64,000 bases of DNA from Candidatus Ozemobacteraceae bacterium. GTDB taxonomy: Bacteria > Muiribacteriota > Ozemobacteria > Ozemobacterales > Ozemobacteraceae. Below the pieces are notes generated by a model. The model had not been told where the DNA came from and made no database searches. It saw only the letters and a program-made list of their open reading frames with translations. Positions 2,627 through 47,441 of the stretch are shown piece by piece. Each line of letters starts with the position of its first letter. Position 1 is the stretch's first letter. The DNA is taken from contig DAOOQQ010000008.1 in the NCBI GenBank assembly GCA_035388825.1, positions 14,410 to 78,409 on the forward strand. The letters run 5' to 3'. Position numbers and translations under genes: made by a program.

Positions 2627-2646
2627 GCGGATCTCCGTATCGGGAC

Positions 2647-28270: not shown

Positions 28271-30684
28271 ATGAAGACGTGTATCTTCGGCCGGGGGCGG
28301 ACCCTGCCATCATGTCGCCTCGCAGCCATCGGGATTCTGATGGTTTTCCTGCTTTTCTGTCACGGCCGGGCCTGGGCTCTCAACCAGATCAACAACGGGA
28401 CGTTCCTGAGTGACTGGTCGGGATGGACGATCGACAACCAGGTGCGGCGCGGGTTTCCTCTCGAAGCCTTCTCCTGGGTTGCCACGGAAGGGGCTCCGGT
28501 TGGTTCCATCTTCGGCGGCATGACCACCAACAACCGCCAGGGGGACGGCCTAGTCGAACAGAAGTTCACCACCCCGGCCGGCTTCGTCCGGGCCAGTGCC
28601 TATCTGCAGCACAAGGCCTCCACCAACAAAAAAAGCGGCAAGAACAATCGCACGACCGTGACCCTTCGTCTGGACGGCAGTGCCGCCTACCCGAACGAGA
28701 CGATCATCACGACGTTCCTCAGCCTGATCCAGGATCCCACCGCCGCCTTCCAGACGATGAACTGGACGACGCCGGTCACGCTGCGCCCGGGAACCTCGTA
28801 TCTCTTCCGGCTCTACTGGGATATCAAGACCAATGGCGCTCTCGGGTTCTATTTCGACAACGTCAAGCTGAATATCAGCCCGTCCGGCCTGCGGACGGAC
28901 GACAACGGCACGGACGTGTTTCTGAGCTGGAATCCCAGTGTCGGTGCCGTGGCCCTGAAGGAATACCGGGTGTTCCGGGCGACCACCAGCGGCGGTCCAT
29001 ACACCCAGATCGCCACCACGACGGCGACCACCTATACCGATGCCGCATGGTCTCGGACAATATTTATTACTATGTTGTCCAGGATGTCGAGCTGGTCAGT
29101 GGTGATGTATCCCCCAACAGCGTCGAGGCCGTGTTTTTCAAGATCAAGGTGCGGGACGGTCCCTCGCAGGACATCGCGTATTCCTGGCTGACCGACCGGG
29201 TCGAGGCGAACTGGGACCATCCGAAAGCCTCTCTGCTGCGGTACAAGGTCGCCGTGGGCACGACTCCCGGCGGAAACGACGTCAAGGACTGGACCGATGT
29301 GGGCATGGCGAACACGGTCACGTTCACCGGGCTGAATCTTGCGAGCGGTATGACCTACTACACGACGGTCCAGTCCCAGGATGCGCTCGAGATCGACCAG
29401 TGCAAGGGCTCCAGCAACGGGTTCATGATCCGGACCGATCCCGTGTTCGTCGATACGGCCTCCTCCACGTTTTTCAACAACTCCCGGCTTCAGACGATGA
29501 TCGATTTCACGACCGACCCGGGCTCCATCCGGCCGAAAACCTTTGCCAGCGGGGGCTTCTGGCCTCGCCGCGTCTCCGTGACGGTTCGGGAGCCGGGCAT
29601 CACGGACCGCATCAACGCCCCCTGCCGCATCACCTTCAACATCCCGGCCGGGGCCCCGGCTGCGTTGGCCGAGATTCGCGTCGCCGACGATCAGGGAAGC
29701 AAAGTGCCGCGCGTCGTCGGCGGCACCCTGGCGAACCCGGTGGTGACCTTCCTCGTCAACATGCCCAAGAGCGATTCACGGATCTACTATGTGTATTGGG
29801 GTAATGCCGGGGCTCCGGAGCCGGCCTATGGCTTCTCGAACGGCGTCACCCAGACGGCCGCCCTCCAATATTCGCAGTACTATTCAAGAAAGCTCCTCGC
29901 AGCCGGAATCGAGTCGGTGCCGCTTGCCTTCAATTACGGGTATCGGGAGTCACCGGCCGTCATCTCGGGAGATCCCGATCCGGGAAATACGGCGCCCGAA
30001 AGTTGGGCCGAGGAGTTCGAGTATTTCAATGCGGCCGGCGGATATGCGAACAGCGCCGGCTGGCGGAACGATTGCCGCGGACAGCAGATCACGAACCTGT
30101 TCGGCGGCACCTTCTGGTTTTTCGGAACCAACACCCCGAACTGGTGGATCTGGAGTAACGACCTTCTGTACAACGCGACGGCGAACGCGAACAACTGGAG
30201 CTCCTTCGCGGGGGCTACGGCCCAGAGCTTCGCGACCTTCACGGGAAACGGCCGGTGGCAGGGCGGTCTGATCGCTCCGCTCTGGGTCGATCTCACCTAC
30301 AACGACGATACCGTCATCGATACCCCCGGTGTCTTTCGCGACACGTATGCCAACCGGGAGGTGTTCACCTGGCGGAGCTCGATGAATATCGACCCGACCG
30401 ACGATACCTATGTGTTTCAGACGACCCTGTACCAGACGGGGGATATCGCGCATCGGTACGATTACCTGAGCCCGAGCTCCGTGACGACGGCGAATGCCTC
30501 GGGACATCCCATTCTGAACGATATCAACGCCGTCGGCATTTCGGCGAACAATGGCACCAACTATCTGACGAACACGCCGCTCGAGCTTGGCCTGGGCCAG
30601 ACGCCCTCCTCTTTTTTTCAGTGCGATCGCGCTTTCGACGGCTACTATACGGTCGGGACGATCGAAAATCCGGTGGGCGGCTGA
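28271..30684 (+). pseudogene. exported multidomain protein (CBM4/9-like, FN3-like, DUF2341-like) interrupted by a -1 frameshift near 29036
   Basis: Signal peptide MKTCIFGRGRTLPSCRLAAIGILMVFLLFCHGRAWA after GGGAGGA RBS. Frame 2 reads ...YRVFRATTSGGPYTQIATTTATTYTDAA. The protein-like sequence then continues only in the 28423 frame: (M)VSDNIYYYVVQDVELVSGD, an FN3-type continuation. DUF2341-like segment AEIRVADDQGSKVPRVVGG...SRIYYVYWGNAGAPEP. Ends at TGA 30682 in frame with the next ORF. Confidence 0.6.
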
Positions 30685-30711
30685 TCGAATGTCGCCGATT
30701 TCGATTCGAAG

Positions 30712-33700
30712 GTGTTCGACTCCCGCCTGGATACCCCCGACTGGGTCCAGTTGGAGTACGATTGCACGGGTGATGCGACCGGCCGGCTCCTGTTCTACGT
30801 CCGGACGGGAAATACCCCCCTCCCGGAGCTTGGCGGCTGGAATTCGTGGGTGAATATAGCTACTGCTACGGCTGGTGGCTTTGCGACGATCACCAGTTCC
30901 GATCTTCGATATTGTCAGTACAAGGTCATCTTCCAGCGCAATTCGAACGGCCCCATGCCCGTTCTGAACGAAGTGCGCCTCATCTGCGGCGGTCTGAGCA
31001 TCGAGGCGATCACCACCGACACCCCGGACGGCGTCTGCCAGGGCCAGACCGGCATTCCCGTCGGCGTGACGCTCAAGAACACCTACATCAATCCGGTGTC
31101 GCTGACGAATGCGACCCTCAGCTTCTCGCTCGGGAGCTACACCTTCACGCTCGTGTCCCCAACGTTGCCTGTCACGATCAATCCCGGGGTGGCGACAGCT
31201 GCCACCTTCACCGTGTCGGTTGCCGATGCCTCTCCGGTCGGCATGGCGGTCATCCAGGCTCTGGCCACCGGCACATCCGGACCGAGCACCTTTTTCGATC
31301 GGGACGCCCAGATTCCGGGAAGCTGGCTGGTCCGGAAAAAGGCGACGATGGTGATCAAGGAGGTCCGGACGGTACCCACGGCGGTCAACAAGGGCCAGAA
31401 CGGTATCCCCGTCTTCATCGATCTCGAGAACACCGGCGAAACACCGCTGGTGTTCAACGGGGCGAGCCTGACGTTCTCCCTGGGGTTTTACACCCAGACC
31501 CTGATATCGCCCGCGCTCGGCACCGTCATTCCCGGCCCCGGGAGTCTCACCGTCCAGATTTCGGTCAACGTTCTGTCGAACAGCCCCTCGGGCATCTCGA
31601 CGATCGACGCGACCGCCTCGGGAACGAATGCGTTTTCCGGCAAGCCGGCAAATGCCGCAGGGGCGGTCGTGAAGGATGCCTGGACGATCCAGTCGCCTTC
31701 CGATCTCGTTCTCGTGTCGATCACGGCCTCGTCGACGGTTTATCGCGGCCAGACAGGGATTCCGGTGTTTCTGAACGTCCAGAACATCAAGGAAGCTCCG
31801 GCTTCCTGGACGAGTTCGACCCTGCTTCCCTATTTCACGCTTGGCACCTATGACGCCGTGTATCCCGTCACGCCATTCCCGGTCACGGTTCTGGGAGGCC
31901 AGTCTCTCACGGTTCAGTATGGCGTGGATATCTCGCCGCTTTCGGCAACGGGGACCTCCTCGGTCGATGCGCGTATCGACTGGCTCGACGGCAACATGGG
32001 CGATGCGAAATTCTATGAACGGGCCCTGCTGCCGGCCACCTGGACGATCATGGCCGAGGTCGTGAAAAGCTACAAGGACGCGGCCGGCCTGTATCCGTCG
32101 ACCAGCTTCAACCGCCCCAGCGTCGGTTCGACGATGATCTATGCGAAGGGGGAAAACCTCGCTCCGTTCAAGGATTTCGTCGTCCGGTGGTATGACCCGT
32201 CCGGCACCGAGGTGGCCTCCTCGAATCCGCCGCTGACGGCCCTGGCCTCCGGCACCCTTGCCCACCAGTATGCCATCGGCCCCACGTCCCCCTTCGGCCA
32301 GTGGACGATCCGCGTCACGAACCCGCTCAACACCATCGTTTCCTGTCAGACGTCCTTCGACGTCGTGAACGGGGCGAGCCTCACGGCATCGCTTTCCCTG
32401 CCCCTGACCGTGTCCGTCGGGCAGCCGTTCCAGGCAGTCATGTCCTGTTCGAACGTCGGCGGCGCACGCATCCGGGACGCGTATCCGGGCGTGCTGGCCA
32501 GTTCCGGCACGGGGATCGCCACGCTGACGGCCGGGCCGACGCCGGATTCCCAGGATATTCTGGGGTATACATCGGCGACATTCACCTGGATGTGGCGGGC
32601 GACGAGCGCGGGCACCTTCGTTGCATCGGATGTTGCCTTCGGTGTCGACGCGAACGCGGATCTTGCCATCCGGAGCGCGACGGCGACGAGCAACGTCTGC
32701 GTGATCCAGACGCCGCCGAGCCTTTCCCTGATCTCGCTGACGGCAACCCCGACCCTGGTCTACCGGAACCAGAAGAACATCGAGGTCGAGGCGCGGGTGC
32801 GGAACTCGGGGCAGGCAACGGCCATGCTGACGACCGCCAGCCTGTCGTTCACGCTGGGCTCCTATACGCAGGCGATTGCCACGCCTTCGGTCCTGCCCGC
32901 GTCGATTCCCGGGAACAATGCCGTGGCGACGATCACGTTCATGGTGGACGTGGACTTCGATTCCCCCGAGGGCCTTGCAACGCTGACGTTCGGCATGCGG
33001 GCCTACGATGCCAACGTTCCGGCATCGGTGACGATTCTCGTGCCTGCGTCCCCAAACGACCGGTGGACGATCGGATCGATCGGTATCCAGCTCTCCCGGG
33101 AGACGGATTTCTCCACCGAACAGTATGCGTTCAACCGTGGTCAGGATGTGAAGATCCGTGCGTTCGGCCTGCCGCCGTATTCCACGGGATACAGGTTCAG
33201 GCTGTACAGCTCGACGATTCCCAACACCTCGCCGGCCCCGGCCGGATGGACCGATGTGTCGAACCGCCTGACCGCGACCTCGAAGGGATGGGTGGATTAC
33301 GTCTATACGCTTCCGGCCGGAGCTGCGCTGACGCGCTGGAGTGTCGAGATCGAAACCGACCCTGACAGCAACAGTACGACGCGCGACCAGCTCCTCGCCG
33401 TGAACTATTTCGATGTCCAGACGCCCGGAAACCTGATCGCCAGCCTGACGATCTCGCCCAATCCGGTGTTCGTCGATGACACCGTGACCGTCACGCTCGT
33501 TGCCAGCAATACGACACCGTCGGGAGCGAGCGTCTCCCCGGCGACCCCTTCGGCTCTCGTCCCGACCGCGGCAAGCACGGGAGCCATGTCGTATCAGACG
33601 GGCCCCGCGCCCGCCTCTTCCACCGTGACGGCGCTGGCATCGACCACCTTCGTCTGGACCTACAAGGCGACGGACGACACGGGAACGGTCGGCAGTTACT

Positions 33701-36700
33701 CGCTGACGGCCCAGCTTGCCTGCTCGGTCTACGGTGTGGATGCCAACACAGGAACTCCGATCAACAGCCAGGCGGCCGTTTCCAACGGGCTGAAAATCTA
33801 CCGGCGGGCCATGGCTCTTTCCCCGTCGGCATTCGACCTGGGCTCGCTTGCGCCAGGGGAGACCACTTCGACCATCCCCTTCCAGGTCGGCAACGTCGGC
33901 AACCTCGTCCTGAGCGCCGTGAAGTGGAACAAGGTCGATCTGAACGGCGTTTTCCCCCTGACGACTTCTCACGCCTACGTGACGCTGGCCCCGTCTCCGA
34001 TCGGAGCGATCAATCCCGACGCCAGCGCCGCCGTCTCGATTGCGATGACGGTTCCCTACAATCAGGCTTCCGGCACCTATGCCACGACGATGTCGGTGTA
34101 CGAAGACATGAATGGTAACGGGAATCCCGATTCCATCGAACCGTATAAGATTTTCACCGTCACGGTGAACGTGCTGAGCCGGCCGAAAGTCTTCGTCATC
34201 GAGAATCTGATCGATCTCGGCAACTGGAGCCCCGGTCAGACGACCAATGCGAAGAGTGTGAACCTGTTCAACGGAGGAAACCAGGCGGTCACGAACGTCA
34301 AATTCGTTCAGACGATCGGAAGTGCAACCTTCCTGGCCGTTTCTCCGAATCCCGGAAATCTGACGATCGGGGAATCCCGCGTAGCAAGCGTCTCCGCCGC
34401 GATTCCTGCCGCCGCCACCCAAGGGATTTACGTCGCGACCTGGACGATGTGGGCGGATACGGATGCCGACGGGGCGATCGATGCCGGAGAAGCGAGTGAC
34501 ACGTTCCAGGTGCGGGTCGGTGTCGGCACCAAACAGTTCACTCTGTCCCCTCCCGTGCTTCCTGCGGGGCTCGGGACGCCTTCGACGATCATCTCCGGGC
34601 TCAAGGAGACCATCACCAATACCGGTTCGCTGTCTCTGACGAATCTCAAGGCTTCGCTTCAGGCCCTGCAGGATGGGATGGGCAACTCGATCGCCACAGA
34701 CAATATCTCCATCATTCCGCCTGCTTCGGTCGTGACGACGGGTACCGCGACCGTCGCCCTGTTCGTCCCTCCCGGCATGATCATGGGCGCGTATTCGGGA
34801 GTTCAGACTCTGTACGAAGACTCGAACGGGAACGGCGTGGCCGACCCCGGCGAAGCCTCGGGAACATTCACCCTGACCGTCAGCATTCCCGCCTATCCCG
34901 CGGTTCAGGTGCTCGCTCCGACCGTGGAACTGGGCGATCTTGCCCCGGGAGCGGTTGTGACGGTTCCCTTTGCCTGCCGTAACTCGGGCAATGTCACGCT
35001 GTCCCGGCTCATGTGGACCAAGCTGCCTTTGGTATCTGCAGGCGGCAACACGATCTCGACGCCGAGCTACGATTTCCCGCCCGGAGTGCCGTTTACGGCG
35101 GCTCCCGGAGCCATCTTCACGAGGGATGTGAGGCTGATCGTGAACGTGGCTCAGCCCCCGGGGGATTATACCGGCAGCTCGGCATGGCTGTTCGATGACA
35201 CCGATCTGGGGCTCGATCGTGACACCGGCGAGCCCCAATCCCCGTTCATCATCAAGTGCCGGATCGGCTCTGCGGCTTTGGACATCGAAAACCTGTCGTA
35301 TGCCACGAGCGGCCCGCCCGCCACCTACTCGGCCGAAACGGCGATCAAGTTCCGCAACACCGGCTCGTTGACGATCACGAGTCTCGTGGCGACCTGTTCC
35401 GCTCTTGTCGGGCCGCAAACGATCCCCGCCTCGGCGAGCTTCATCTTTCCGGTTTCCGGTTCTTTCGTGCCGGCGCCCCTCGGCAGCATCCTGGTCGGCG
35501 GCCAGAAGTTCGGGTACTGGCGCGTGTTGGTTCCGGCCAACAGGCTTCCCGGGCTCTACACGGGCACCCTGACCGCCTGGAATGATATCAATGGCGACAA
35601 GCAGCTTCAGAGCTACGAGGCGAGCGACACTTGCGCGATCAATCTGACGGTGACCTCGAACAAGGCGATCAATGTCCTCCAGTCGAATCTCGACCTGGGG
35701 TGGACGACGGAGAACTCCGTCGTCAGCGGCACGATCGAGATCGTGAACACCGGAAACCAGGATCTGACCATGGTCAGAGCCGTCATTGCCACGCTCTCGA
35801 GCGGGATCGACGTGATTCCGGCTTCTTCGATCGTGTATCTTCCGGCCGTGCCGGGTGGATTCACGGTTGGTCAGTCGCAACTGGCGACGATCACGATCAC
35901 GGTGGGCTCTCCGAAGGCGGATGGCACGTATGTCGCAACCCATCGCATCTATGACGATTACAATGGTGCCGACGGGAGTTATAACCCCGGCAATGAGGAA
36001 AACGACACCTTCACGATCACGCTGCGCATCGGCCACAAGAGCGTGTTCGAGACGGATCCGACGAATCCGCCGGTGGATTTCGGCCCGCAGGATCCGGGAG
36101 GGACGGTTGTGAAGAGCTTCACCGCCTACAACGGATCGGCGATTCCGCTGACGAAGCTGCGGTGGAAGAATCTCGTCCCGCTGACGGGGACCGGATATAC
36201 CTTCCCTCTCGCGTCTCTGACCTGGTCACCCGCCGCACCTTTCGGCATTCCGGGAAGCGGGAACATCTCCTGCGCCGCAACCGTCGAACTGGCGAGTTTC
36301 GTTCCACCGGATGTGTATACGGGGGATTCGGCGGTCTGGGAGGATGAGAACGGTGACGGGGTCATCCAGGCTGCCGAGGCCACCGCGAATTTCCAGGTGA
36401 AACTGACGGTGAATCCGCGGCCTCTGATCACGCTTCTGCCCGGAATGGTCGATTTCGGCCGGATCGGCCGGGGCCAGGCCTCGGGCTGGGTCGGAATTTG
36501 CTATTACAACGCCGGCAATGTCCCGCTGAATGCCTTTTCCTGGACGTTCGCGAATGTCGGGGACGGGGCCGGACACACCATCCCCGCGGCGGTGATCGCC
36601 TTCGATCCGTTGTTCAACCCCGATCCAACGCCGGTCGGCTCCTACGGCACGACGACGGTCCGGATCGGCCCGGTCGATCCCCTGCAGGAGCTTGGAGTCT

Positions 36701-37799: not shown

Positions 37800-37882
37800 C
37801 GGTCTTCTCGCGGTGATATTCAGGTCATGATAGCAGAAATACGCACCATGATTGAAATATTTGATAAACAATAGAAACCTGC

Positions 37883-38008
37883 GTGGCCATCGAGCAAAAA
37901 GCGATCGCCTTGGTGGCGAAACACCTGGCGAAGGAATTTCCCGGCCGAGAACTTCGGATCGTTTGCGAAGGGGGTCTCTACAAGATCATTGGGGATCTTG
38001 ACCTTGGA
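37883..38008 (+). pseudogene. partial duplicate of the 27745-28137 gene (C-terminal ~41 aa only)
   Basis: MAIEQKAIALVAKHLAKEFPGRELRIVCEGGLYKIIGDLDL versus AIEAEALDLLRERLAEAFPGRELSILREGDQYKIIGDLGLD. The downstream remainder of the ORF overlaps the giant minus-strand gene and looks non-coding. Confidence 0.4.
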
Positions 38009-38050
38009 AAGCTCGAACGGCATCCCTTGATCGGGATGCCGAATAATATG

Positions 38051-41000: not shown

Positions 41001-44000
41001 CGGCCGCTGACGGTGAGGGAGGACGAAACGAACTGGAGGCGTTCCAGCGGAAGCCCGCCGGTGTTCGATAACCGCAATGCCGGAGAAAAGGTGACTTGGC
41101 CGGGGGATACATTGGGAAGCGTGACGGTCGCCGAAACGATATCCAGGGACTCGTTCGGACCCACGATGAGCGAAAGGCTGACGGCGGAAGAAGCCTCGCC
41201 GGGATCGGCAAGCGTGTCGACATCCTTGTCGTTGAGAAACGTGCCCGTTCCAACATAGGTTCCCGGGGTCTGCGCGTTGGGGATCTGCACCGAAAAGTTC
41301 ACCCAGCGGGCATCTCCGGGACTCATCAGGCCGAAAATGACGGGCTGAAGGCTTGCCGAAGAACTCGGGATCGTGTTTCCCAGATACTTCAGATCCGAGA
41401 TGACGAAGCGGACCTTGATCTGATCCATGTTCCCGATGTTCGTCACCATGAGGGATGCCGTGGCGGTGCGGTCGTTGGCGAGCCAGCTTCCCAGGAAAAG
41501 AGAGGTGTGGTTTGCCCGCAGCAGTTCCGTCGGGGGAACGACGACGCGCATCAGAAACTGCGCGATGGCATCTCCGATCGATGCCCCGTCTTGGTTGGTG
41601 TCCTCGAAAACGAATTGGTAGGCGGTATAGGTGCCCGGCTCCTGCATCGGTGGAATCGTGACGCGCAGCCCCCCCGTCGTGGAGTCGCCGACGGCGAGGG
41701 CGCCGATCATATCCGGTGTTCCGACGCTGCCGTCGGGCGGGATGAAGTAGGGATCCGAGGCAAGATTGTGAAACTCCCACTTCAGATGCTCGAGATCGAG
41801 ATTTCCGGTGTTCGTGATGGTTACGGAACGACTCGGACTGGTTTGCCCGGGACCCACCGTTCCCATGTCGACCAACCCGGGAGTGACCTGGAGCGCCTTC
41901 TGGGAGATGCTGACCCCCGTCGAACGGGTATCCGGCACATGACAGTCCTGGCCGTCGAGAAGGGAGACGCCCGAAGCGAGAACCCCGTTTTCGACCGGCC
42001 CGTGGAGATAGAAGCGTGTGCCGGCACTTGTCATCTGAGTCGGTGTGTAAAGCGCCGTGAATGAAACCGTTTCCCCGCAGGAAAGGGTGTTCGAGGCTGG
42101 CTGGGGATTCTGGATGCAGACGCCGTTTCCCGTACAGTCGCCTCCGGGGGCTTTTTCCCAGATGTGCGGAATGATGCGGAGGCGCTCGTGGTTTTCGGAC
42201 TGCCCCGTGAGATACACGTCGTCGAGCAGGAGGTGATCCATTCCCCCGGCATCCGCCTGGAGTCGGAAACGGATCCGGACATTCGAATTGCCCAACAGAT
42301 CTTCGGGAAGAGCGATGAGCAGGTCTTTCCAGATGCCTATTCCCAGCTGGGCCGTCTCCGTGAACAGACTCGTCCAGGTGACGCCGTCGGGGGAGGTCTC
42401 CACGACGAAAACCGGGGCACCTGCGAAGACCGTGGAATACCTCGCGTGGAGGGAAACGCCGGTCATGTCGCGGAGATTGACCACCCGCGTGAGGGTTTCG
42501 GCTCCGGCAGCATTGTAGGAGAGATGGACGAACTGGCTGGGGGGATTCGCCGCGTAGGCTGCCGCCGTGTCGAGGATTTCGGTGCCCGGTCCTGCCGTCG
42601 TCCAGGCGGACGAGAAGATGCCGGCTTCGAACAGGTCGCCGAACACCGAGGAGGTGACGGACAAGGCGGCGGTCATGGGGGTTCCGAGACTGCTCGTTGC
42701 CGGCGAAAGCTCGAAGGAGGGCATCGGAAAAGGTTTTTCCAAGATTCGGGCCGACCCCGTCGCAAGGTGGGTGGCCCCGTTCCTGACCTGAATCGTGCCG
42801 AGGCCATACCGGAACGCCGCCGTCGGTGTATAGGTCTGGGTGAGGCTCCCGCCGGCGTTGGTCGAGACCGGCAAGGAGGCGATGGGGGCCGCGTCGGGGG
42901 GGAACGCATCATACCAGCACAAGGAAAGCGTTTGGAGAGAGGGGAAGCCTGTTCCCAAGACCGTGATCGGCTGGCCCCGTGCGAATCGGCTACAGGGAAT
43001 CGTGGCCGCACCATCGGAAAACGTCTGCAGAGACGAGGTCGACACCGTCCACTGGTCGTTCAGCGTGGCTCCGACGATACTCTGGACGCCGGTCGCGACG
43101 ACGCTCGTCGCCGTTGCGGCGGCATCGATCGTCGTCAGCCCGGCTGCGGCGGCAACCGAAACGTCCACGCTCAGGGTTGCGATCAAGGTCGTGACCGGAA
43201 TCGTTTCTTCCCCCAAGCCGATCGCGTTCGGCGCATTCATGAACAGCCGGATGTCGTCGAAACACAGGCGATTGTTGTTGGTCGACCAACCGTACCAGAA
43301 GTTGGCCTCGAACTGGATCTGCCATCCGGGGCCGGTCTGATACCCCGACAAATCGTAGGTTTCCTCGTGCCAAAGGTCATCGTTGGGGCCGTTGGCCGGG
43401 TAAAAAATCAACTCGTTCCAGGCGGCTCCGTCATACAGTTTGACTCGCCCCCAGTCATAATTCGTTCCCGCGGTCGTTCCCGTGCAGCCATTGTCGAAAT
43501 ATCGATGATAGGTGAGTTGAAGGTGGTGATATCCGCTCGTGTCGATCGACCGGGCGGCTTGGGCGAACTTGTTCAGGTTGAAGGTGTTCCCGAAGTCCAG
43601 ACCGCGGAAACAGAGAGACTGTGCTGCGAGAAGCGGCGACGAATCCGGACCGAGTTGAAGGGGAGAGGTATCGTTATTGTTTCTGGAGATATAAATGCCA
43701 TTGACGCCGGCATCGTTCGTCGCCCAGCCGGGGAAATTGGGTTGACTGATGTCTGCGAGCAGGGAGAAGCCGTTTCCGTAGACCGAGCCTTCCCAATCCT
43801 CCCAGAAAATGTAGCAATTCTTCCGGTTCGCGGCGAGATCGGCACTCGTAGCGGCGGTGTTCCCATAGTAGACGTAATATCCTTCGTCGCGGCCATACGG
43901 CAAAATCTCGTTCCGGATCTTGAAGATAGATTTATTCGAGCTGATATAATGCCGATCGAGTTGCACCCAGCCCGTTCCTTCGATCCACTGCATCAAGCGC

Positions 44001-46777
44001 CAATCGTCGAGATCGCCTTGCAGTTTCCCGGCGGCGATCAGATCGTTCGTCTTGATGGTGATCTGGGACGACGAGTTGGGGGGATACCGCTGGTCATCGG
44101 CCGTGATGCGGAGACGCTGCCGATACTTGTAGGCGGTGTTCCACCAGGGGGGGGAACCGGTGCCCGACAGATGCGCGGGAATGGTTGGGGAGACGATGAC
44201 GGCCGTGTAGTCGGGAGATCGGTCGGTCGCTCCCTGCCTGGCCGTGAAGCTCAGAGAGGCGATGTTCAGGTCCGCCGATCCGGTGTTCGAAAGAGTCACC
44301 GATACCGGCACGCCGGTCTGGCCTCGGGTGACGGTCGTCTCATCCGCCGCGACTTGGCTGATCGACATCTGTTCCGTGAGTATCCGGCAGATGTTCGAGC
44401 CTCCCGAGGCGGATTCGACCTGAAGGGAGCTGCCCTCGACGGTTCCGAGGGCATTGCCCCGGAATGCCAGGTTGCCGGGGGCTCCAGCCGTCATCGTCCA
44501 GGTGAACTCGCCGGTTGCGCCGCCGGTGATCGTCAACGCCATGGGGGAGGGTCCCGTGAAGGCGGTGAAGCCGCCCCCGCCGTCGGCCGTCGGGGCGGTC
44601 GGGGTGACGCCGATCGCGGGAGTCTGACCGGTGTTCTTCACGCGCTCCGTCAACGTGATCTGCTGACCCTGGATGGCATACTCCGGCAGGATAAGCTCGC
44701 TCAGCAGTTGGGGCTTCGTGTTGAGATGGAAGCCGGTTTCCGCGTAGGAAACCGTGCCGGCGGCGTTCGTGACGATGAGACGCCATTGGCCGCTTCCATC
44801 CGTGGGCGACATCGTGCGTTGGTCGAACAGGACACCGGAGGACTGCGGCGTCACCGTCGTCGTCGTCACGAGATTTCCCGAGGGGTTGTACCAGGCGACC
44901 CGGTAGTACACGCCGGCGGTGTACCCCGAACCTCTGACATACACCGTTTCACCCGCGTTGAAAGCGGTCTTGGGCATCATGTAGAAGGGGTTTCCATAGG
45001 CTGTGATATCTTGTCCGGCGATCTCCCAGACGAGGGGAACGGCGGCCGAGTCATCGCTGATCGGCTGGCCGCTGTTGATCTCGACGCCCTCGGCCAGCCC
45101 GTCGATCTGATCCGGTCCCGAAACGGCTGCGGGAGAGACCGAAATGTCGAAGAACGCCTTGATCGTCGGTGCCAGGGGAACCTGCTCCTCGATGCCGAGG
45201 AGGGGATTGTCCGGCTCATGGTCGGCGATCTGGCGGATGCGGATATCGTCGAGACCCCAACCGTATCCAAACACCAGTTGGTCCACCCGAAGACAATACT
45301 CGAGATAGATTCGTTCGCCGACCAGGGCGGAAAGCCCATAGCTTTGGGGCTGCCACGTGTAATGTTCGTTCAGATATTGATCTTCGAAGCGGAGAAGCGC
45401 GGTTGCCGGCGCTGGTGCGATTCCTGCCGCCGCTACGGGAGCGCGATAGGCGCGGAGGGTGCCGTAATCGTAGGGAGCTCCCGGGTCTTCGATGTCGAAA
45501 ACATCGTAGAACGTGAGGGTGGGATTCAGTTTGCCGGCCAGATCGATGGAGGGTGAGCGAAGCCACATCACTTCGGCAGCAGGTACTTGTCCCGTATACT
45601 GGGTCGTGAGGCCGGTGGCGGCGATTCTCGTGCCGCTGTAGGCGGACAAGGGGGTGATCTGGCCCGCCGGGCCGGGAATGCCGATGGCCCATGCCGTCGT
45701 ATAGGCGGCGATTTTGCCGATGGTCCAGTTGAGAGGGGCCGGTCGGTTGCCGCTTTCGAAGTCGTCGTCGAAGATGAAGACGGCGTTGGGATCATCAGGT
45801 GGGTTCATCGCATCAGCCATGCCGGCTCCATAGTAGATGGCATATTTTTTGTCCGCCGCGGGAGCGGGTGCGAGGGGCGTTTGGAGCCGGAACCAGATCG
45901 TCGTCTGGGGAGATTGCCAGGAGCTTTGCCGCGTATCGAGATAGCGGGGGATTTCGTAGAAGTTCACCCCGTCGTCGTAGATGATGCGGATGTCATCGCC
46001 GGAGGGAAGGGATTTTCCGGCATCGACGAGAGCGGCATGATCGAACGTGAGGCGTATCTCGTAGGTGGCCGGAAGCGTCAGTTGCGATTGGTTGGTGATC
46101 GACATCATTCTTCGAAACGGCCATTTTTTGTTCCACCAAGAGCTGCGGGTGAAATTTTGCGGCAGCTGCGGGGATTTGAGCACCCAATCGAGATAGTTCG
46201 TCGGTGTATCGGGAACGAGGTCGACGGCATTCAGCCAGGCACTGGCCTCACCCGAACGGCTGACATCCATGATCGCCTGATTGCCGATGCTGCCCCGGGA
46301 GATGGTCGAGGGGCCGATGATCGAAGTGATGACCAGTTCCGAAGGCTGCTGGACCGTCCAGGTATGGATGACGTCGGCCGATGGGTCGCTGCCGCCCGAC
46401 GTCGTGACCGTGCCATCGACCGTACAGACCCCAGAGGTGGAAAGCGGATTGACGGACACGGTGAAAACACAGGCGAGATGCGAGCCTGCTCCGATGCTTG
46501 TCGGAAGGGCTGGGCTGTTGTGGGCCACTTCGTAGCTGCCGAGCGTGAAGGTGAGGTTGGCCGCCGTGAGGGTCACGGCGGATGCCGTATCCAGATTTTC
46601 GACATCCATCGTGACCTGGATTCCCGTTTGCCCCTTGGACACGGTTGCTCTGGAACAGGTGATGCTATTGATGCGCACGGCTCCATTGGCGGGAAGGGGT
46701 GCGCAAAGGAGCAGAACCAGGAGGGCGAGAAGAAAAACGGGAATGCTTCGTGGACGAGGATCATGATGACGGTTCAT
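38051..46777 (-). CDS. giant (2,908 aa) exported repetitive surface protein: CARDB/Ig-like repeat arrays, two DUF2341-like modules, LamG/CBM-like C-terminal domain
   Basis: Start at MNRHHDPRPRSIPVFLLALLVLLLCAPLPANGA (signal peptide), overlapping the upstream gene's stop (ATGA at 46774-46777). The track ORF begins 330 nt further upstream, inside the neighbouring gene. Repeats of type VSKGQTGIQVTMDVENL...LTFTLGSYEV. DUF2341-like KKYAIYYGAGMADAMNPPDDPNAVFIFDDDFESG and EGYYVYYGNTAATSADL...CYIFWEDWEG. C-terminus ...AVMFDGIQLEKA...GTPYYTW, paralogous to the 30712-37317 gene. Confidence 0.85.
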   Translation of the reverse strand: MNRHHDPRPRSIPVFLLALLVLLLCAPLPANGAVRINSITCSRATVSKGQTGIQVTMDVENLDTASAVTLTAANLTFTLGSYEVAHNSPALPTSIGAGSHLACVFTVSVNPLSTSGVCTVDGTVTTSGGSDPSADVIHTWTVQQPSELVITSIIGPSTISRGSIGNQAIMDVSRSGEASAWLNAVDLVPDTPTNYLDWVLKSPQLPQNFTRSSWWNKKWPFRRMMSITNQSQLTLPATYEIRLTFDHAALVDAGKSLPSGDDIRIIYDDGVNFYEIPRYLDTRQSSWQSPQTTIWFRLQTPLAPAPAADKKYAIYYGAGMADAMNPPDDPNAVFIFDDDFESGNRPAPLNWTIGKIAAYTTAWAIGIPGPAGQITPLSAYSGTRIAATGLTTQYTGQVPAAEVMWLRSPSIDLAGKLNPTLTFYDVFDIEDPGAPYDYGTLRAYRAPVAAAGIAPAPATALLRFEDQYLNEHYTWQPQSYGLSALVGERIYLEYCLRVDQLVFGYGWGLDDIRIRQIADHEPDNPLLGIEEQVPLAPTIKAFFDISVSPAAVSGPDQIDGLAEGVEINSGQPISDDSAAVPLVWEIAGQDITAYGNPFYMMPKTAFNAGETVYVRGSGYTAGVYYRVAWYNPSGNLVTTTTVTPQSSGVLFDQRTMSPTDGSGQWRLIVTNAAGTVSYAETGFHLNTKPQLLSELILPEYAIQGQQITLTERVKNTGQTPAIGVTPTAPTADGGGGFTAFTGPSPMALTITGGATGEFTWTMTAGAPGNLAFRGNALGTVEGSSLQVESASGGSNICRILTEQMSISQVAADETTVTRGQTGVPVSVTLSNTGSADLNIASLSFTARQGATDRSPDYTAVIVSPTIPAHLSGTGSPPWWNTAYKYRQRLRITADDQRYPPNSSSQITIKTNDLIAAGKLQGDLDDWRLMQWIEGTGWVQLDRHYISSNKSIFKIRNEILPYGRDEGYYVYYGNTAATSADLAANRKNCYIFWEDWEGSVYGNGFSLLADISQPNFPGWATNDAGVNGIYISRNNNDTSPLQLGPDSSPLLAAQSLCFRGLDFGNTFNLNKFAQAARSIDTSGYHHLQLTYHRYFDNGCTGTTAGTNYDWGRVKLYDGAAWNELIFYPANGPNDDLWHEETYDLSGYQTGPGWQIQFEANFWYGWSTNNNRLCFDDIRLFMNAPNAIGLGEETIPVTTLIATLSVDVSVAAAAGLTTIDAAATATSVVATGVQSIVGATLNDQWTVSTSSLQTFSDGAATIPCSRFARGQPITVLGTGFPSLQTLSLCWYDAFPPDAAPIASLPVSTNAGGSLTQTYTPTAAFRYGLGTIQVRNGATHLATGSARILEKPFPMPSFELSPATSSLGTPMTAALSVTSSVFGDLFEAGIFSSAWTTAGPGTEILDTAAAYAANPPSQFVHLSYNAAGAETLTRVVNLRDMTGVSLHARYSTVFAGAPVFVVETSPDGVTWTSLFTETAQLGIGIWKDLLIALPEDLLGNSNVRIRFRLQADAGGMDHLLLDDVYLTGQSENHERLRIIPHIWEKAPGGDCTGNGVCIQNPQPASNTLSCGETVSFTALYTPTQMTSAGTRFYLHGPVENGVLASGVSLLDGQDCHVPDTRSTGVSISQKALQVTPGLVDMGTVGPGQTSPSRSVTITNTGNLDLEHLKWEFHNLASDPYFIPPDGSVGTPDMIGALAVGDSTTGGLRVTIPPMQEPGTYTAYQFVFEDTNQDGASIGDAIAQFLMRVVVPPTELLRANHTSLFLGSWLANDRTATASLMVTNIGNMDQIKVRFVISDLKYLGNTIPSSSASLQPVIFGLMSPGDARWVNFSVQIPNAQTPGTYVGTGTFLNDKDVDTLADPGEASSAVSLSLIVGPNESLDIVSATVTLPNVSPGQVTFSPALRLSNTGGLPLERLQFVSSSLTVSGRTIDATNVTIAPAPLPTVGTGLFTTFVFYVDIPFDQDRNPGPAYSGVQTIFNDRNGNGLLDAGEARDTITISTNILDSRNFAIVEEIANFGAGVPNETVEIGVHVVNIGNLDCQNLKWKCLSPLSNGVTTFAVSPPGTQPAFNPGNGGNGWDLTPPATVATLSINPIPLAATPGTYWGSWTLWNDLDNDTVIDAGEASDTVTGYLEVGVDGVDILDSSPLDLGSAAPGEKTPPVIFSVKNIGERTLTRLLYEKPNLIQAPYPALTPFFQIYSYPDPIGLLTAGVTWAPSIQVAIPENQGPGLYSGPLRVFQDDLPDETYTSPEKYDTITLHLLVKEKLALRFEASPLDLGGINKGETIAKTFTAFNVGNKQINNLKYLLSPLKDGGNSIPTGQLSLQVPPSPWALPWTGPSSQVATFTVTTLTTTPTGNYSGEVTFWEETGGTPGLDAGESFWKLPVKISVGAKSVDVLATTINFGNIAKGNDTATQTFTVRNTGTVFLSNLKIDKQPVGAIGTPDIRFLPNQVAPPALNPGVTRDISVSIHTTPTTLSGTFSGEQWVYEDLNGNGVREPLEPQDSFVLTLIVTSGGALSYEMVTAPNPLIIVAPRNTTATRSFHITSICDNPLTNVQMVTAAPILGAFTIPASNLRMTPPSVNIQVMETVDASLSVTIPSMQPAGRYYTATQTVIDLDHPAATAPLMVYVEVPPTKFTITPSVFTPISAAQGSTVSFGFTLTNTGPYPIALDAVGTNLVGPGIIPFSAANVLFGMPTLAIGGTVNGTCSLTIDPATPIGFHVGTMTIRDALFQNEASPTVQIPVQVTGPAGIPEVVYQTITGPDKIATSTAYVFSSYLLATAPLHVDPNPASTSRVLLRVTEWCGTASTTHEYGTNGIRAEEINISINRWQRYSFAFTSTSSALLGSFTVELGLFSTKTGEAVMFDGIQLEKAVTLPGLSPAQEATPWTPERGVVTPTRQNGLFRGTPYYTW

Positions 46778-47406
46778 GGTACGACTCCTGCCGTGTGTCC
46801 AAGCCGGCGTGTCAGGCGCTGCCAGGTATCGAACGCGGATGTGTCCAACGGCTTTCGCTTCAGGTGGGTCCGGAGAAGGGACACGGCCGAGGCTGGCTCG
46901 TTCGATTGTTCGAAGAAGGTGATGAGGCGCATGGCATGACGATCGAAAAACATCGGATCGGCCGAGGCTGCATTCGTGAAAAGGTTCCAGACATCGGATG
47001 GCGAGCTGGCAGCCATCGCTGCCAGAATGTCCGATTCGGCAGCTCGGCGTGCCGTTGCGGTCGGGAGGGTGGAGAGGAGATAGGCGAACCTCGGATCGTC
47101 GGGGCATAACGCCCTGGCCCGCAGAAGCAGAGGCTCGGCCGTGCCGATGTTCCCTGCGTCGATCAGGTGTGCCGCTTCGATGAACAGGGCTTCGGCCATC
47201 TTCGCTTCATGGAGGTGGGGGGAAGAACGGGGAACGACGGTGGCAGATGGCGTGGATGGAGGTCGAGGTCGGATCTGGAATGGCGAGGGAAGCGGAGGGG
47301 GATTCGTCCGGAAGAGAGGAATGAGAAACTTGGCGAAGAGACAGCAGCCCAGGAGGAAGAGGAGCACCACGATGATCGTGTCCAGGATGCGGGCATATCG
47401 TTGCAT
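46774..47406 (-). CDS. membrane-anchored TPR-like protein, first-neighbour partner of giant protein gene
   Basis: Start MQRYARILDTIIVVLLFLLGCCLFAKFLI (TM helix) after AAGGA RBS. Pro-rich linker, then helical TPR-like region. Translationally coupled (ATGA) to the giant gene. The track ORF 46774..47691 starts further upstream. Confidence 0.55.
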   Translation of the reverse strand: MQRYARILDTIIVVLLFLLGCCLFAKFLIPLFRTNPPPLPSPFQIRPRPPSTPSATVVPRSSPHLHEAKMAEALFIEAAHLIDAGNIGTAEPLLLRARALCPDDPRFAYLLSTLPTATARRAAESDILAAMAASSPSDVWNLFTNAASADPMFFDRHAMRLITFFEQSNEPASAVSLLRTHLKRKPLDTSAFDTWQRLTRRLGHTAGVVP

Positions 47407-47441
47407 ATCCTTGGTCGGGTCAGAGGGATGCCCTGTCGAGT

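What the first reader, a model, noticed from the sequence alone, without database searches (positions are those of the whole stretch)
28271..47406. Two convergent giant paralogous surface proteins with DUF2341-like + CARDB/Ig-like repeat arrays and dedicated small membrane/TPR partners
The ~19-kb block encodes two ~3,000-aa exported proteins in tail-to-tail orientation. Each contains about 20 or more ~100-aa repeats with the motif GQTGIPV.V.L.NTG...L..A.L.F.LG.YT. It also contains modules with the DUF2341-like YY.YYGN...vF.FDD signature and CBM4/9-like jelly rolls. The minus-strand copy heads a three-gene operon (membrane protein, TM-TPR protein, giant) with ATGA coupling. The plus-strand copy looks degraded. 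No sortase, T1SS, T9SS or PEP-CTERM signals are recognisable. The repeat-array size and paired architecture suggest an adhesin/S-layer-like system. How the proteins are exported or anchored cannot be determined from this sequence.
Basis: partly seen in the sequence, partly recalled or inferred. Interest (0 to 1): 0.75.

Follow-up and report, generated by a model that had tools for sequence, protein, structure and literature searches.

The report
Giant surface proteins with pilin-like partner
An uncultured Riflebacteria genome carries two ~3,000-residue secreted proteins built from about 22 beta-sandwich domains (one intact, one broken), and the intact one sits in an operon with a divergent type IV pilin-like protein, which suggests a pilus-type machine displays or exports it.

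Summary
The two convergent giant genes are real. A runs 38051-46777 (-), 2,908 aa. B runs 28271-37317 (+), ~3,014 aa, and is broken by one frameshift and one TGA at a conserved Trp codon. The operon of membrane protein, TM-TPR protein and giant, with two ATGA overlaps, is also real and extends to 48056, beyond the finding's end.

The repeat description is only partly right. The GQTGIPV motif occurs 3-4 times per protein, not about 20. The main array is 8-9 copies of a different Ig-like unit (HYDIN/VesB or choice-of-anchor-D type). DUF2341 passes Pfam's cut-off only in A. CARDB and CBM_4_9 are not matched by sequence.

Three new points:
- The "membrane protein" is a remote homologue of GspG-type pseudopilins that lacks Glu5. 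It lies next to 11 of 13 related giant genes, in any orientation.
- All giants share a unique C-terminal jelly roll with a CBM-like fold, followed by a 28-residue tail ending in Y-[YF]-x-W.
- The family is small (83 clusters in 1.84 billion proteins). Every relative that could be named is from Riflebacteria.

Best model: these are Sec-exported fibrous adhesins that a type IV filament displays or exports through a dedicated cap-type pilin, analogous to PilY1. This is a new variant of a known kind and of moderate interest.

The parts
48109..48138 (-). Promoter-like hexamers (TTTTCA, 18 nt spacer, TG-TATACT) about 50 nt upstream of gene 1. A terminator-like hairpin at 48161-48176 (-) closes the upstream M16 peptidase gene.
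   Evidence: These are consensus scans only: 4 promoter-like sites were found against 0.2 expected.
47442..48056 (-). Gene 1, 204 aa: a divergent type IV pilin / GspG-like protein. It has a basic N-terminus, Gly at -1 (TTG|SVLLLLLV), a long hydrophobic alpha-1 helix, and a 'YL..(i)p.DP..P..RWG' loop. It lacks Phe+1 and Glu+5.
   Evidence: The family profile retrieves proteins that JGI names 'general secretion pathway protein G' and that carry PF07963 (E 4e-7 to 1e-3 against 5.8 billion proteins). hhalign against those gives 98.7%, E 4e-16, and still 96.9%, E 2e-10 once the hydrophobic N-terminus is removed. The best PDB profile hits are type IV pilins (7tgg, E 1.4e-3). Absence of Glu5 is seen in alignments A4 and A2. 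Single-sequence Pfam finds no pilin family.
46774..47445 (-). Gene 2, 223 aa: a bitopic membrane protein with a TM helix, a Pro-rich linker (~35 aa) and a TPR-like helical domain. Its start overlaps the gene 1 stop (ATGA) and its stop overlaps the giant's start (ATGA).
   Evidence: TPR_14 E 1.5e-6, above the cut-off. The PDB profile search hits consensus TPR proteins. Orthologues lie directly upstream of A-type giants in L001, L002, L007, L008, L009, L012 and L016. Overlaps are shown.
38051..46777 (-). Giant A, 2,908 aa, intact. Order of modules: signal peptide; GQTG-type Ig domains; DUF2341 plus jelly-roll modules; two MG2-like domains; a third jelly roll; nine ASH / choice-of-anchor-D-like Ig repeats; a C-terminal jelly roll; a conserved tail.
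   Evidence: It is 100% identical to P0001, named as a hypothetical protein of a Candidatus Ozemobacteraceae MAG.
46679..46777 (-). Signal peptide of A (MNRHHDPRPRSIPVFLLALLVLLLCAPLPANG|A).
   Evidence: Read directly from the sequence. Orthologues keep AxA|AV[RK]IN. No signal-peptide predictor was available.
45722..46000 (-). DUF2341 domain of A (aa 260-352).
   Evidence: PF10102, 31.9 bits against a cut-off of 23.4 and 24.1 bits on a sub-fragment. A second, weak copy lies at about aa 948-999 (E 0.12).
43043..44356 (-). A GQTG-type Ig domain split in two. Residues aa 808-876 match HMM positions 1-62 and aa 1174-1245 match positions 57-109. The ~300-aa insert between them (aa 877-1173) is a DUF2341-like module plus a jelly roll, so this is a nested domain.
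   Evidence: HMM coordinates; window coordinates.
38600..41872 (-). Array of 9 Ig-like repeats of ~125 aa (aa 1636-2726), with the motif 'DLG...PG......v.N.Gn..L..l'.
   Evidence: Iterated HMM, domain E 1e-16 to 3e-35. The whole protein scores 38.4 bits for HYDIN_VesB_CFA65-like_Ig against a cut-off of 25.5, with weaker DUF7507 and DUF1573 hits. choice_anch_D scores 33 bits, below its cut-off of 45.
38054..38599 (-). Family-defining C-terminal domain of A (aa 2727-2908). It is a beta-sandwich with a CBM-like fold, followed by a 28-aa tail (38054-38137) ATPWTPERGVVTPTRQNGLFRGTPYYTW-COOH.
37905..37919 (-). Terminator-like hairpin plus T-run about 130 nt downstream of the stop of A.
   Evidence: consensus scan only.
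28271..37317 (+). Giant B, ~3,014 aa when repaired; apparently a pseudogene. Order of modules: signal peptide; N-terminal jelly roll; FN3-like domains; an unassigned ~340-aa module; four GQTG-type Ig domains; two MG2-like domains; eight ASH-like Ig repeats (33832-36726); the same C-terminal domain (36766-37314) with tail PTAFAPGKKIVSPYTELDLSGKKYYFEW.
   Evidence: B is 40-44% identical over 2,600-2,860 aa to P0010-P0013.
29053..29056 (+). Frameshift in B, inside an FN3-like domain (...TYTDAAWS / DNIYYYVV...).
   Evidence: The alignment with P0011 and P0012 runs across the repaired site.
30682..30684 (+). In-frame TGA in B at a Trp codon conserved in orthologues (VGG*SNV against VGTWNEV and VGGWANV). 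A single TGG-to-TGA change would account for it.
37302..37799 (-). Possible extra gene between the two giants (165 aa). It has a lipobox-like N-terminus MPLRKGILVLLLATLPG|C and a C-terminal hydrophobic stretch. Whether it belongs to the system is uncertain.
   Evidence: ORF; GC3 0.72, no homologue in any fetched locus. No Pfam or NCBIfam hit.

Best explanation
The block encodes members of a small family of giant fibrous cell-surface proteins; the relatives that could be named are all from Riflebacteria.

Shown:
- Each giant is a string of about 22 beta-sandwich modules with no recognisable enzyme domain. The modules are Ig-like domains of two kinds, DUF2341, MG2-like domains and CBM/MAM-like jelly rolls.
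- Each has an N-terminal Sec signal peptide.
- Each ends in a family-specific C-terminal jelly roll plus a 28-residue tail ending in Y-[YF]-x-W-COOH.
- The first gene of A's operon is a remote homologue of GspG-type pseudopilins / type IV pilins. It keeps the basic leader, Gly-1 and the hydrophobic alpha-1 helix but lacks Glu5.
- Relatives of this pilin-like gene accompany almost every giant of both subfamilies, in any gene order.

Inferred mechanism:
1. The giant crosses the inner membrane through Sec and folds in the periplasm of this diderm.
2. Its conserved C-terminal domain or tail docks onto the pilin-like protein anchored in the inner membrane.
3. Like the Glu5-less cap pilins PilX and GspK, that protein primes or caps a type IV filament assembled by machinery encoded elsewhere in the genome.
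4. Filament growth carries the giant through the outer membrane. The giant is then either displayed at the fibre tip with its variable N-terminal modules outward (as PilY1 is) or released.
5. The TM-TPR protein is an accessory that holds or chaperones the giant or the pilin at the membrane.

B belongs to the sister subfamily. It has recently been inactivated, or it carries two assembly errors.
For: - Organism and envelope: A is 100% identical to a Ca. Ozemobacteraceae MAG protein. Riflebacteria are inferred to be diderm, with OmpM tethering (bioRxiv 10.1101/2021.05.31.446380).
- Architecture.
- Pilin homology: profile hits to PF07963/GspG proteins. hhalign gives 98.7%, E 4e-16, and 96.9%, E 2e-10 without the hydrophobic segment. 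The top PDB profile hits are all type IV pilins.
- No Glu5 in any member.
- Linkage: a pilin-like gene lies within about 1 kb of 11 of 13 giant genes. It is upstream in the window, L001, L007, L008, L012 and L016; downstream in L002, L004 and L010; divergent in L009; convergent in L011. Linkage kept through rearrangement argues for functional coupling.
- C-terminal module: it is invariant and always terminal in 83 cluster representatives out of 1.84 billion. It also occurs as ~200-aa 'signal peptide + CTD' proteins and on a 430-aa passenger, so it behaves as an autonomous targeting or anchoring module. The tail has low confidence on its own, which fits a peptide that orders on a partner.
- Precedent from the literature: the tip complex is capped by a Glu5-less pilin that contacts PilY1 or T2SS substrates. 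[quoted passage not shown] Large DUF2341 proteins sit in archaeal type IV pilus loci and were predicted to be tip adhesins (PMC4858521). A DUF2341 gene in the epd pilus locus was hit repeatedly in a transformation screen (PMC10133366).
- One relative (L009) has TadE-like pseudopilin genes, an A24 prepilin peptidase and a CpaE/TadZ-like ATPase 3-7 kb from its giant operon.
Against: - No filament machinery is encoded in the 64-kb window: no ATPase, platform protein, secretin or prepilin peptidase. Its presence in this genome was not tested.
- No Pfam or NCBIfam pilin model matches gene 1 or its relatives in single-sequence scans.
- The GspG-like comparison set was itself picked by the family profile, which inflates the apparent similarity somewhat.
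- Only one pilin-like gene is linked to each giant, whereas known tip complexes use four minor pilins.
- Contact between the pilin-like protein and the C-terminal domain was not tested.
- Two giants have no pilin-like gene of their own nearby: the one shared by L005/L006, and window B.
- A ~300-kDa cargo is twice the size of PilY1.
Confidence: 0.45

Rival explanations
1. The giant is a surface layer or sheath protein anchored to glycan. After Sec export and an unknown route across the outer membrane, it is held on the cell by its C-terminal CBM-like jelly roll, which binds an envelope polysaccharide. The pilin-like and TM-TPR proteins are only inner-membrane assembly chaperones, or are unrelated to targeting.
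Against: This does not explain why a GspG-like gene follows giants of both subfamilies through rearrangements. It also does not explain the invariant extreme C-terminal Y-[YF]-x-W, which lies outside the jelly roll. No SLH or other known envelope-binding domain matched. No sequence match to any CBM family was found.
Confidence: 0.2
2. The giant is a released type II secretion substrate with a dedicated pseudopilin adaptor. A T2SS-like piston pushes it out and it works away from the cell, for example binding particulate polysaccharide or other cells, rather than staying on a fibre tip.
For: The closest recognisable relatives of gene 1 are annotated GspG. GspK-type Glu5-less pseudopilins contact T2SS substrates (PMC7541494). 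Many CBM/MAM-like jelly rolls in the giant would suit polysaccharide binding.
Against: No enzyme domain is present, unlike most T2SS substrates. T2SS substrates are not known to share a conserved terminal domain. No gsp genes lie in the window.
Confidence: 0.15
3. The giant stays inside the envelope. The pilin-like protein does not polymerise, because it lacks Glu5. Together with the TM-TPR protein it tethers the giant to the outer face of the inner membrane, where it acts as a periplasmic or intercellular structural element.
For: Glu5, which is needed for normal subunit docking, is absent in the whole family. Both small proteins have a single N-terminal membrane anchor. TPR domains often clamp C-terminal peptides, and the PDB hits include SGTA, PP5 and TOM71-type TPRs.
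Against: A ~100-nm string of adhesin-type Ig, CBM and DUF2341 modules has no obvious role in a periplasm. B-type giants lack the TPR partner. The DUF2341 precedent points to pilus association.
Confidence: 0.12
4. The gene linkage has no functional meaning. The giants are ordinary large adhesins and the neighbouring small genes simply travel with them.
For: Only about 13 loci from one phylum were examined. The L005/L006 giant lacks the partner.
Against: The pilin-like gene is retained next to giants of two subfamilies that are only about 25-30% identical. It appears in four different relative positions and orientations. That pattern is not expected from simple co-inheritance of an operon.
Confidence: 0.06

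Closest known systems
PilY1/PilC tip adhesin with the minor-pilin priming complex of type IVa pili (Glu5-less PilX as cap), as in Myxococcus xanthus, Pseudomonas aeruginosa and Neisseria
   Same: A large non-pilin protein with a type I signal peptide, a conserved C-terminal domain and a variable N-terminal part, encoded next to pilin-like genes. The linked pilin lacks Glu5, as the cap subunit does (PMC7541494, PMC10191384).
   Different: No PilY1/PilC beta-propeller domain was detected; the conserved C-terminus here is a CBM-like jelly roll plus tail. One linked pilin-like gene replaces four minor pilins. The cargo is about twice as large. A TM-TPR partner is present. No pil genes lie nearby.
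Large DUF2341 proteins in archaeal type IV pilus (Epd-type) loci (arCOG03508; COG 'MJ1470/DUF2341, predicted component of type IV pili-like system')
   Same: Large DUF2341-containing proteins genetically linked to proteins with class III signal peptides. They have been proposed to be pilus-tip adhesins (PMC4858521). The locus is functionally implicated in M. maripaludis (PMC10133366).
   Different: This is a bacterial (Riflebacteria) family. The proteins are far larger and dominated by Ig-like arrays. DUF2341 is one small module, and it passes the cut-off only in A. The family-defining C-terminal domain has not been described for the archaeal proteins.
T2SS pseudopilus: GspG major pseudopilin and the GspK cap that contacts substrates
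   Same: Gene 1 is most similar to proteins annotated GspG, sharing alpha-1 and the 'DLV..GYL..iP.DP' loop. Like GspK it lacks Glu5.
   Different: It does not reach any Pfam pilin or T2SSG threshold. It has a ~80-residue C-terminal part with no match. It lacks Phe+1 and Glu+5. It is not in a gsp operon.
Giant multi-Ig 'choice-of-anchor D' / HYDIN-VesB-type repeat surface proteins of environmental bacteria
   Same: Tandem ASH/PapD-like Ig repeats and great length, in an environmental uncultured host.
   Different: Those proteins normally end in a recognised sorting signal (PEP-CTERM, LPXTG, T9SS CTD). None is present here. Instead there is a family-specific terminal domain and tail.
T9SS C-terminal domain (CTD) cargo signal of Bacteroidota
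   Same: A beta-sandwich at the extreme C-terminus, shared by passengers of very different size, including minimal 'signal peptide + CTD' proteins.
   Different: No match to the T9SS CTD models. It occurs in a different phylum. It has a jelly-roll CBM-like fold of about 150 aa plus a linear tail. It is linked to a pilin-like gene rather than to Por genes.

Membership tests
DUF2341 (PF10102) | Match to the Pfam model at or above the gathering score (23.4 bits) | tested here: met
   Giant A aa 260-352 scores 31.9 bits, E 1.9e-7, and 24.1 bits on a sub-fragment. The second A copy reaches only E 0.12. B gives no hit at E <= 0.1, so membership holds for A only.
CARDB (PF07705) | Match to the Pfam model | tested here: not met
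   No CARDB hit at E <= 0.1 in A or in any B fragment. The Ig-like repeats instead touch HYDIN_VesB_CFA65-like_Ig, DUF7507, DUF1573 and MG2.
CBM_4_9 (PF02018) / CenC-type carbohydrate-binding modules | Sequence match to the family model | tested here: not met
   No hit in Pfam.
CBM_4_9 (PF02018) / CenC-type carbohydrate-binding modules | Beta-jelly-roll fold of CBM4/9/22 type | tested here: met
HYDIN/VesB/CFA65-like Ig (PF22544) / choice-of-anchor D (NF012200) | Match at or above the curated cut-off | tested here: inconclusive
   PF22544 whole-protein scores are 38.4 bits for A and 30.1 bits for B against a cut-off of 25.5, but no single stretch passes on its own. NF012200 scores 33 bits against a cut-off of 45.
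Type IV pilin / pseudopilin (class III signal peptide; N_methyl PF07963; T2SSG) | Short basic leader ending in Gly, followed by a ~20-residue hydrophobic alpha-1N helix | tested here: met
   Family alignment A4 shows [KR][KR]G|[AS]L.L.LLV...IG. The window copy reads RRITTG|SVLLLLLVSIMIAGV.
Type IV pilin / pseudopilin (class III signal peptide; N_methyl PF07963; T2SSG) | Glu at +5 (and usually Phe/Met at +1) of the mature protein | tested here: not met
   Position +5 is L, M, I, A or S in all members. This feature is also absent in the cap pilins PilX and GspK, so its absence excludes a canonical polymerising pilin, not a cap-type pilin.
Type IV pilin / pseudopilin (class III signal peptide; N_methyl PF07963; T2SSG) | Sequence homology to recognised pilins | tested here: inconclusive
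   Profile-level homology is clear: hhalign gives 98.7%, E 4e-16, and 96.9%, E 2e-10 without alpha-1N. The PDB profile search returns pilins. However, no Pfam or NCBIfam pilin model is matched by any single member.
Type IV pilin / pseudopilin (class III signal peptide; N_methyl PF07963; T2SSG) | Pilin fold (alpha-1 packed on an antiparallel beta-sheet) | tested here: inconclusive
Type IV pilin / pseudopilin (class III signal peptide; N_methyl PF07963; T2SSG) | Cleavage by a prepilin peptidase and assembly by an ATPase/platform machine | not testable with these tools
   No such genes lie in the window. A relative's locus, L009, carries Peptidase_A24 and TadE genes.
PilY1/PilC tip adhesins | C-terminal PilY1/PilC beta-propeller domain | tested here: not met
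   No such Pfam hit in A or B. The C-terminal domain is a jelly roll. The giant may work like PilY1 but is not a member of that family.
TPR proteins | Match to a TPR model above the cut-off | tested here: met
   Gene 2 matches TPR_14 at 28.7 bits against a cut-off of 23.5. The family profile hits consensus TPR structures at E 3e-8.
Known C-terminal sorting signals (LPXTG/sortase, PEP-CTERM/exosortase, T9SS CTD, T1SS RTX) | Match to the corresponding Pfam or NCBIfam models; for the sortase-type signals, a terminal TM helix plus basic tail | tested here: not met
   No such family is listed for A or B at E <= 1. The last 28 residues are polar or aromatic with no TM helix.
S-layer proteins of diderm Terrabacteria | SLH or another recognised S-layer anchoring domain | tested here: not met
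   No SLH hit in Pfam or NCBIfam.

The most novel reading that the evidence does not exclude
The shared C-terminal module is a previously unrecognised cargo signal for a type IV filament or T2SS-like machine. The module is a CBM-like jelly roll plus a 28-residue tail ending in an invariant Y-[YF]-x-W-COOH. It would dock passengers of any size (about 200 to 3,800 aa) onto a dedicated Glu5-less cap pilin, possibly by strand addition or through a TPR carboxylate clamp. This would be a defined, transferable recognition element for pilus-type export. No such element is known for type II secretion.
Probability: 0.15. Interest if true: 0.75.

Novelty: new variant of a known kind. Interest (0 to 1): 0.45.

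Why it matters
How type II secretion systems and type IV pili recognise the proteins they push out or carry at their tip is still poorly defined. Known cases (PilY1, T2SS exoproteins) share no simple signal.

This family offers a compact, conserved pairing of one Glu5-less pilin-like protein with one terminal domain and tail. The pairing is found on passengers from about 200 to 3,800 residues, which makes the interaction easy to test by complex prediction or pull-down.

It also gives the first functional lead for the largest genes of an uncultured diderm Terrabacteria phylum (Riflebacteria). And it extends the proposed link between DUF2341 proteins and type IV pili from archaea to bacteria.

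If the pilin link is wrong, what remains is an ordinary lineage-specific giant adhesin.

Tried and rejected
- phmmer of A and of the large B fragment against all PDB sequences gave no hit at E <= 0.1.
- Single-sequence Pfam and NCBIfam scans of gene 1 and its 15 relatives found no pilin family.
The first genome scan with the broad alignment had no stretch conserved enough. The narrower patterns used in the repeat scan find only close relatives, so 'Riflebacteria only' is a lower bound on distribution. The three Myxococcales hits in that scan are spurious short matches.
- A second putative small-small-giant operon downstream in L001 (26064-28697) turned out to be unrelated, defence-like genes.
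- Recoding of the TGA in B was considered and rejected. Genes 1 and 2 use TGA as their stop codon, and the frameshift is an independent second lesion.
- A lipoprotein reading of A's signal peptide (LLLC) and of gene 2 (LLGC) was rejected. The Cys is not conserved in orthologues.
- A recent tandem or inverted duplication as the origin of the A/B pair was rejected. Each is closer to its orthologues in other genomes than to the other.
- No DNA repeats link the two genes.

Full report
**What is in the sequence**

The window has about 63% G+C. Between 28.2 and 48.1 kb it holds two very long reading frames that converge on a 733-nt spacer.

Giant A is on the minus strand. The ORF opens at 47107, but the real start is the ATG at 46777. 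That start gives a typical signal peptide (MNRHHDPRPRSIPVFLLALLVLLLCAPLPANG|A) and overlaps the stop of the upstream gene in an ATGA. A therefore runs 38051-46777 and is 2,908 aa long.

Giant B starts at 28271, also with a signal peptide. It is interrupted twice:
- A frameshift lies at about 29053-29056, inside an FN3-like domain.
- An in-frame TGA lies at 30682-30684.

Once repaired, B is about 3,014 aa and aligns without breaks across both lesions to orthologues (40-44% identity over 2,600-2,860 residues). The TGA falls on a Trp that is conserved in P0011, P0012 and P0013, so a single TGG-to-TGA change explains it. The 2,200 codons downstream of the TGA are still open. The inactivation is therefore recent, or the two lesions are assembly errors. 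Reads were not available to decide.

Upstream of A lie gene 2 (46774-47445, 223 aa) and gene 1 (47442-48056, 204 aa). Both junctions are ATGA overlaps. Consensus scans place a promoter-like site at 48138-48109 and a terminator-like hairpin at 48176-48161, between the upstream M16 peptidase gene and gene 1. Another terminator-like hairpin lies at 37919-37905, after A. The operon therefore reaches about 650 nt beyond the finding's end coordinate.

**Checking the domain claims**

Pfam supports DUF2341 in A (aa 260-352, 31.9 bits against a cut-off of 23.4). It also gives HYDIN/VesB-like Ig, DUF7507, DUF1573 and MG2 signals in A, and MG2, HYDIN/VesB-like Ig and a weak fn3 in B. There is no CARDB, no CBM_4_9 and no DUF2341 in B. 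NCBIfam adds only a sub-threshold choice-of-anchor-D match and no sorting-signal model.

Iterated HMMs built from the proteins themselves give the repeat census:
It also occurs once in A as a split domain: aa 808-876 match the first 62 model positions and aa 1174-1245 match positions 57-109. Between the halves sits a ~300-residue DUF2341-like plus jelly-roll insert.
- The dominant array is a different ~125-residue Ig-like unit, with nine copies in A (1636-2726) and eight in B (1854-2818).
- Each protein also has two MG2-like domains, each followed by a further Ig-like domain, plus several jelly rolls.

About 22 beta-sandwich modules per protein is a fair total, but 20 or more copies of that one motif is not. 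No enzyme domain was found.

**Family and distribution**

A is identical to a hypothetical protein of a Candidatus Ozemobacteraceae MAG. In 5.8 billion clustered proteins only about a dozen full-length relatives share words with it. They fall into two groups:
- A-type (P0002-P0008), 42-44% identical to A.
- B-type (P0009-P0013), 25-27% identical to A but 39-44% identical to B.

A and B themselves match only in patches of 23-35% identity. They are therefore old paralogues, not a recent pair. The convergent arrangement is not seen in any other locus. Riflebacteria are inferred to be diderm Terrabacteria with OmpM tethering (bioRxiv 10.1101/2021.05.31.446380), so a surface protein must cross an outer membrane.

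**The C-terminal module**

All giants end in the same way. After a last 'FDG[IV]QLE[KR]' strand comes a 28-residue tail, PT..-x-..[ST]P..-x-..Y[YF]xW-COOH, with invariant T, P, Y and terminal W.

A profile of the last ~180 residues was searched exhaustively against 1.84 billion cluster representatives. It found 83 proteins at E <= 1e-10, always with the domain at the extreme C-terminus, and 69 of the 79 inspected end in W. Most full-length hits are giants of 2,000-3,800 aa. There are also ~200-residue proteins that consist only of a signal peptide and this domain, and a 430-residue protein with another passenger. The module is therefore autonomous.

**The small partners**

Gene 2 is a bitopic membrane protein with a Pro-rich linker and a TPR domain. 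Weakly conserved orthologues (19-30% identity) sit directly upstream of A-type giants.

Gene 1 has no Pfam or NCBIfam match. Its orthologues (33-60% identity) show a basic leader, a Gly, a ~20-residue hydrophobic helix, an amphipathic continuation, and a 'YL.DLVA.GYL..iP.DP.cP..WG' loop.

Several results identify gene 1 as a remote homologue of type IV pilins / GspG-type pseudopilins:
- A profile of five members, searched against 5.8 billion proteins, retrieved the family and then proteins carrying PF07963 that JGI names 'general secretion pathway protein G' (E 4e-7 to 1e-3).
- Profile-profile comparison with those proteins gives 98.7% probability, E 4e-16, over residues 10-125.
- With the hydrophobic segment cut from both alignments, the comparison still gives 96.9%, E 2e-10.
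- A profile search of PDB sequences returns only type IV pilins at the top (geopilin, PilA, GspG; best E 1.4e-3).

Gene 1 lacks Phe+1, and in every member it lacks Glu+5.

The structural test failed to add anything. The model is confident only for the helical half, and fold searches were uninformative.

**Linkage**

HMMs for gene 1, gene 2 and the C-terminal domain were run over all six-frame ORFs of the fetched loci. A pilin-like gene lies within about 1 kb of 11 of the 13 distinct giant genes, in different relative positions:
- Upstream in the window, L001, L007, L008, L012 and L016.
- Immediately downstream in L002, L004 (between two tandem B-type giants) and L010.
- Divergent in L009.
- Convergent in L011.

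Only the giant shared by L005/L006 and window B lack a pilin-like gene of their own. Retention through rearrangement, and across two subfamilies, argues for a functional pair. The TM-TPR gene goes only with A-type giants. One relative (L009) also has two TadE-like genes, an A24 prepilin peptidase and a CpaE/TadZ-like gene 3-7 kb away.

The genome scan found the pilin-like family only in Riflebacteria/Ozemobacteraceae MAGs. The search patterns were narrow, so this is a lower bound.

**Mechanism**

In type IV filaments the tip complex is capped by a pilin that lacks Glu5 (PilX, GspK). This cap contacts PilY1 or the secreted substrate. [quoted passage not shown]

Independently, large DUF2341 proteins are encoded in archaeal type IV pilus loci and were predicted to be tip adhesins (PMC4858521). 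A DUF2341 gene in the M. maripaludis epd locus was hit repeatedly in a transformation screen (PMC10133366).

The features here match that pattern: Sec signal, conserved C-terminal module, variable N-terminal modules, DUF2341, and a tightly linked Glu5-less pilin-like gene. I therefore propose that the giant is exported by Sec and docks through its C-terminal domain or tail onto the pilin-like protein. It would then be carried through the outer membrane and displayed, or released, by a type IV filament assembled by machinery encoded elsewhere. The TPR protein would act as an accessory.

The identities of the parts are shown. The docking, the involvement of a filament machine and the final location are inferred.

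The main rival is anchoring by glycan binding of the CBM-like domain, with no role for the pilin. Other rivals are release as a T2SS substrate, or retention at the inner membrane.

**Comparison with known systems and verdict**

The giants are not members of the PilY1/PilC family, since they have no beta-propeller. They are not CARDB or CBM_4_9 members by sequence, and they carry no recognised sorting signal. Gene 1 fails the Glu5 and Pfam tests for a canonical pilin, but it is homologous at profile level and resembles cap pilins.

The system is best described as a new variant of the known 'type IV filament with large tip or cargo protein' theme, in an uncultured phylum. What sets it apart is a family-specific terminal module that could serve as a transferable recognition element.

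Without the pilin link it would be an ordinary lineage-specific giant adhesin. Interest is moderate.

Noticed in passing
window 27985-28150 (+) and 37868-38040 (+): The 3' end of the small ORF just upstream of B (27745-28137, 130 aa, no family) has a diverged copy just downstream of B. The copy is about 70% identical in nucleotides, and the protein fragments match at E 1e-8: '...FPGRELSILREGDQYKIIGDLGLD' against '...FPGRELRIVCEGGLYKIIGDLDLG'. B and the lipoprotein-like ORF are thus bracketed by old direct repeats. This could mark an insertion of B next to A.
   Followed up: partly
window 37302-37799 (-): An ORF in the spacer between the giants has a lipobox-like signal (LLLATLPG|C), helical TPR-like content by eye, and a C-terminal hydrophobic stretch. 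It has no Pfam or NCBIfam hit and no homologue in any related locus. It overlaps the end of B by 16 nt.
   Followed up: partly
window 43043-44356 (-) (giant A aa 808-1245): This is a nested domain. One GQTG-type Ig domain is interrupted in a loop by a ~300-residue DUF2341-like plus jelly-roll insert. The first DUF2341 plus jelly-roll module of A (aa ~246-565) looks inserted in the same way, but that was judged by eye only.
   Followed up: partly
window 26062-26898 (-), 59253-60755 (-); L001 23175-25151; L008 20783-22198; L011 965-2215: Ankyrin-repeat proteins, some with signal peptides, recur within a few kb of the giant or pilin-like genes in several loci. This may only reflect an abundance of ankyrin genes in Riflebacteria.
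   Followed up: no
window 3-6864: A cluster of four paralogous B12-binding radical SAM genes (3-1289, 1286-2626, 4085-5521, 5518-6864) surrounds a 453-aa secreted protein with no family match (2647-4008).
   Followed up: no
L009 2809-6716: In the relative that carries giant P0008, two TadE-like pseudopilin genes, an A24 prepilin peptidase and a CpaE/TadZ-like gene lie 3-7 kb from the divergent pilin-like / TM-TPR / giant cluster. A second TM-TPR gene starts right after the giant (18949-19674).
   Followed up: partly
P0060, P0079, P0102, P0107, P0115 (about 200 aa) and P0058 (430 aa): These are stand-alone secreted proteins made only of a signal peptide plus the giants' C-terminal jelly roll and Y-[YF]-x-W tail. 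Both A-type and B-type tails occur. Their genomic context could not be looked up.
   Followed up: partly
L002 8646-9066: A tandem DNA repeat lies just upstream of that locus's TM-TPR / giant operon; it reads as the repeated peptide '...TTTVSRRLFHDDCF...' in a minus-strand ORF. In L002 the upstream pilin-like gene is missing, and two pilin-like genes lie downstream of the giant instead (18981-19589 +, 19638-20297 -).
   Followed up: no
window 53476-55239 (-) and 52637-53428 (-): A 587-aa protein carries four CarboxypepD_reg / SdrD-B-like beta-sandwich repeats and a lipoprotein-like N-terminus. Next to it is a 263-aa protein without any family that ends in an aromatic-rich C-terminus typical of outer-membrane beta-barrels (…TWYFGFSAAH).
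   Followed up: no
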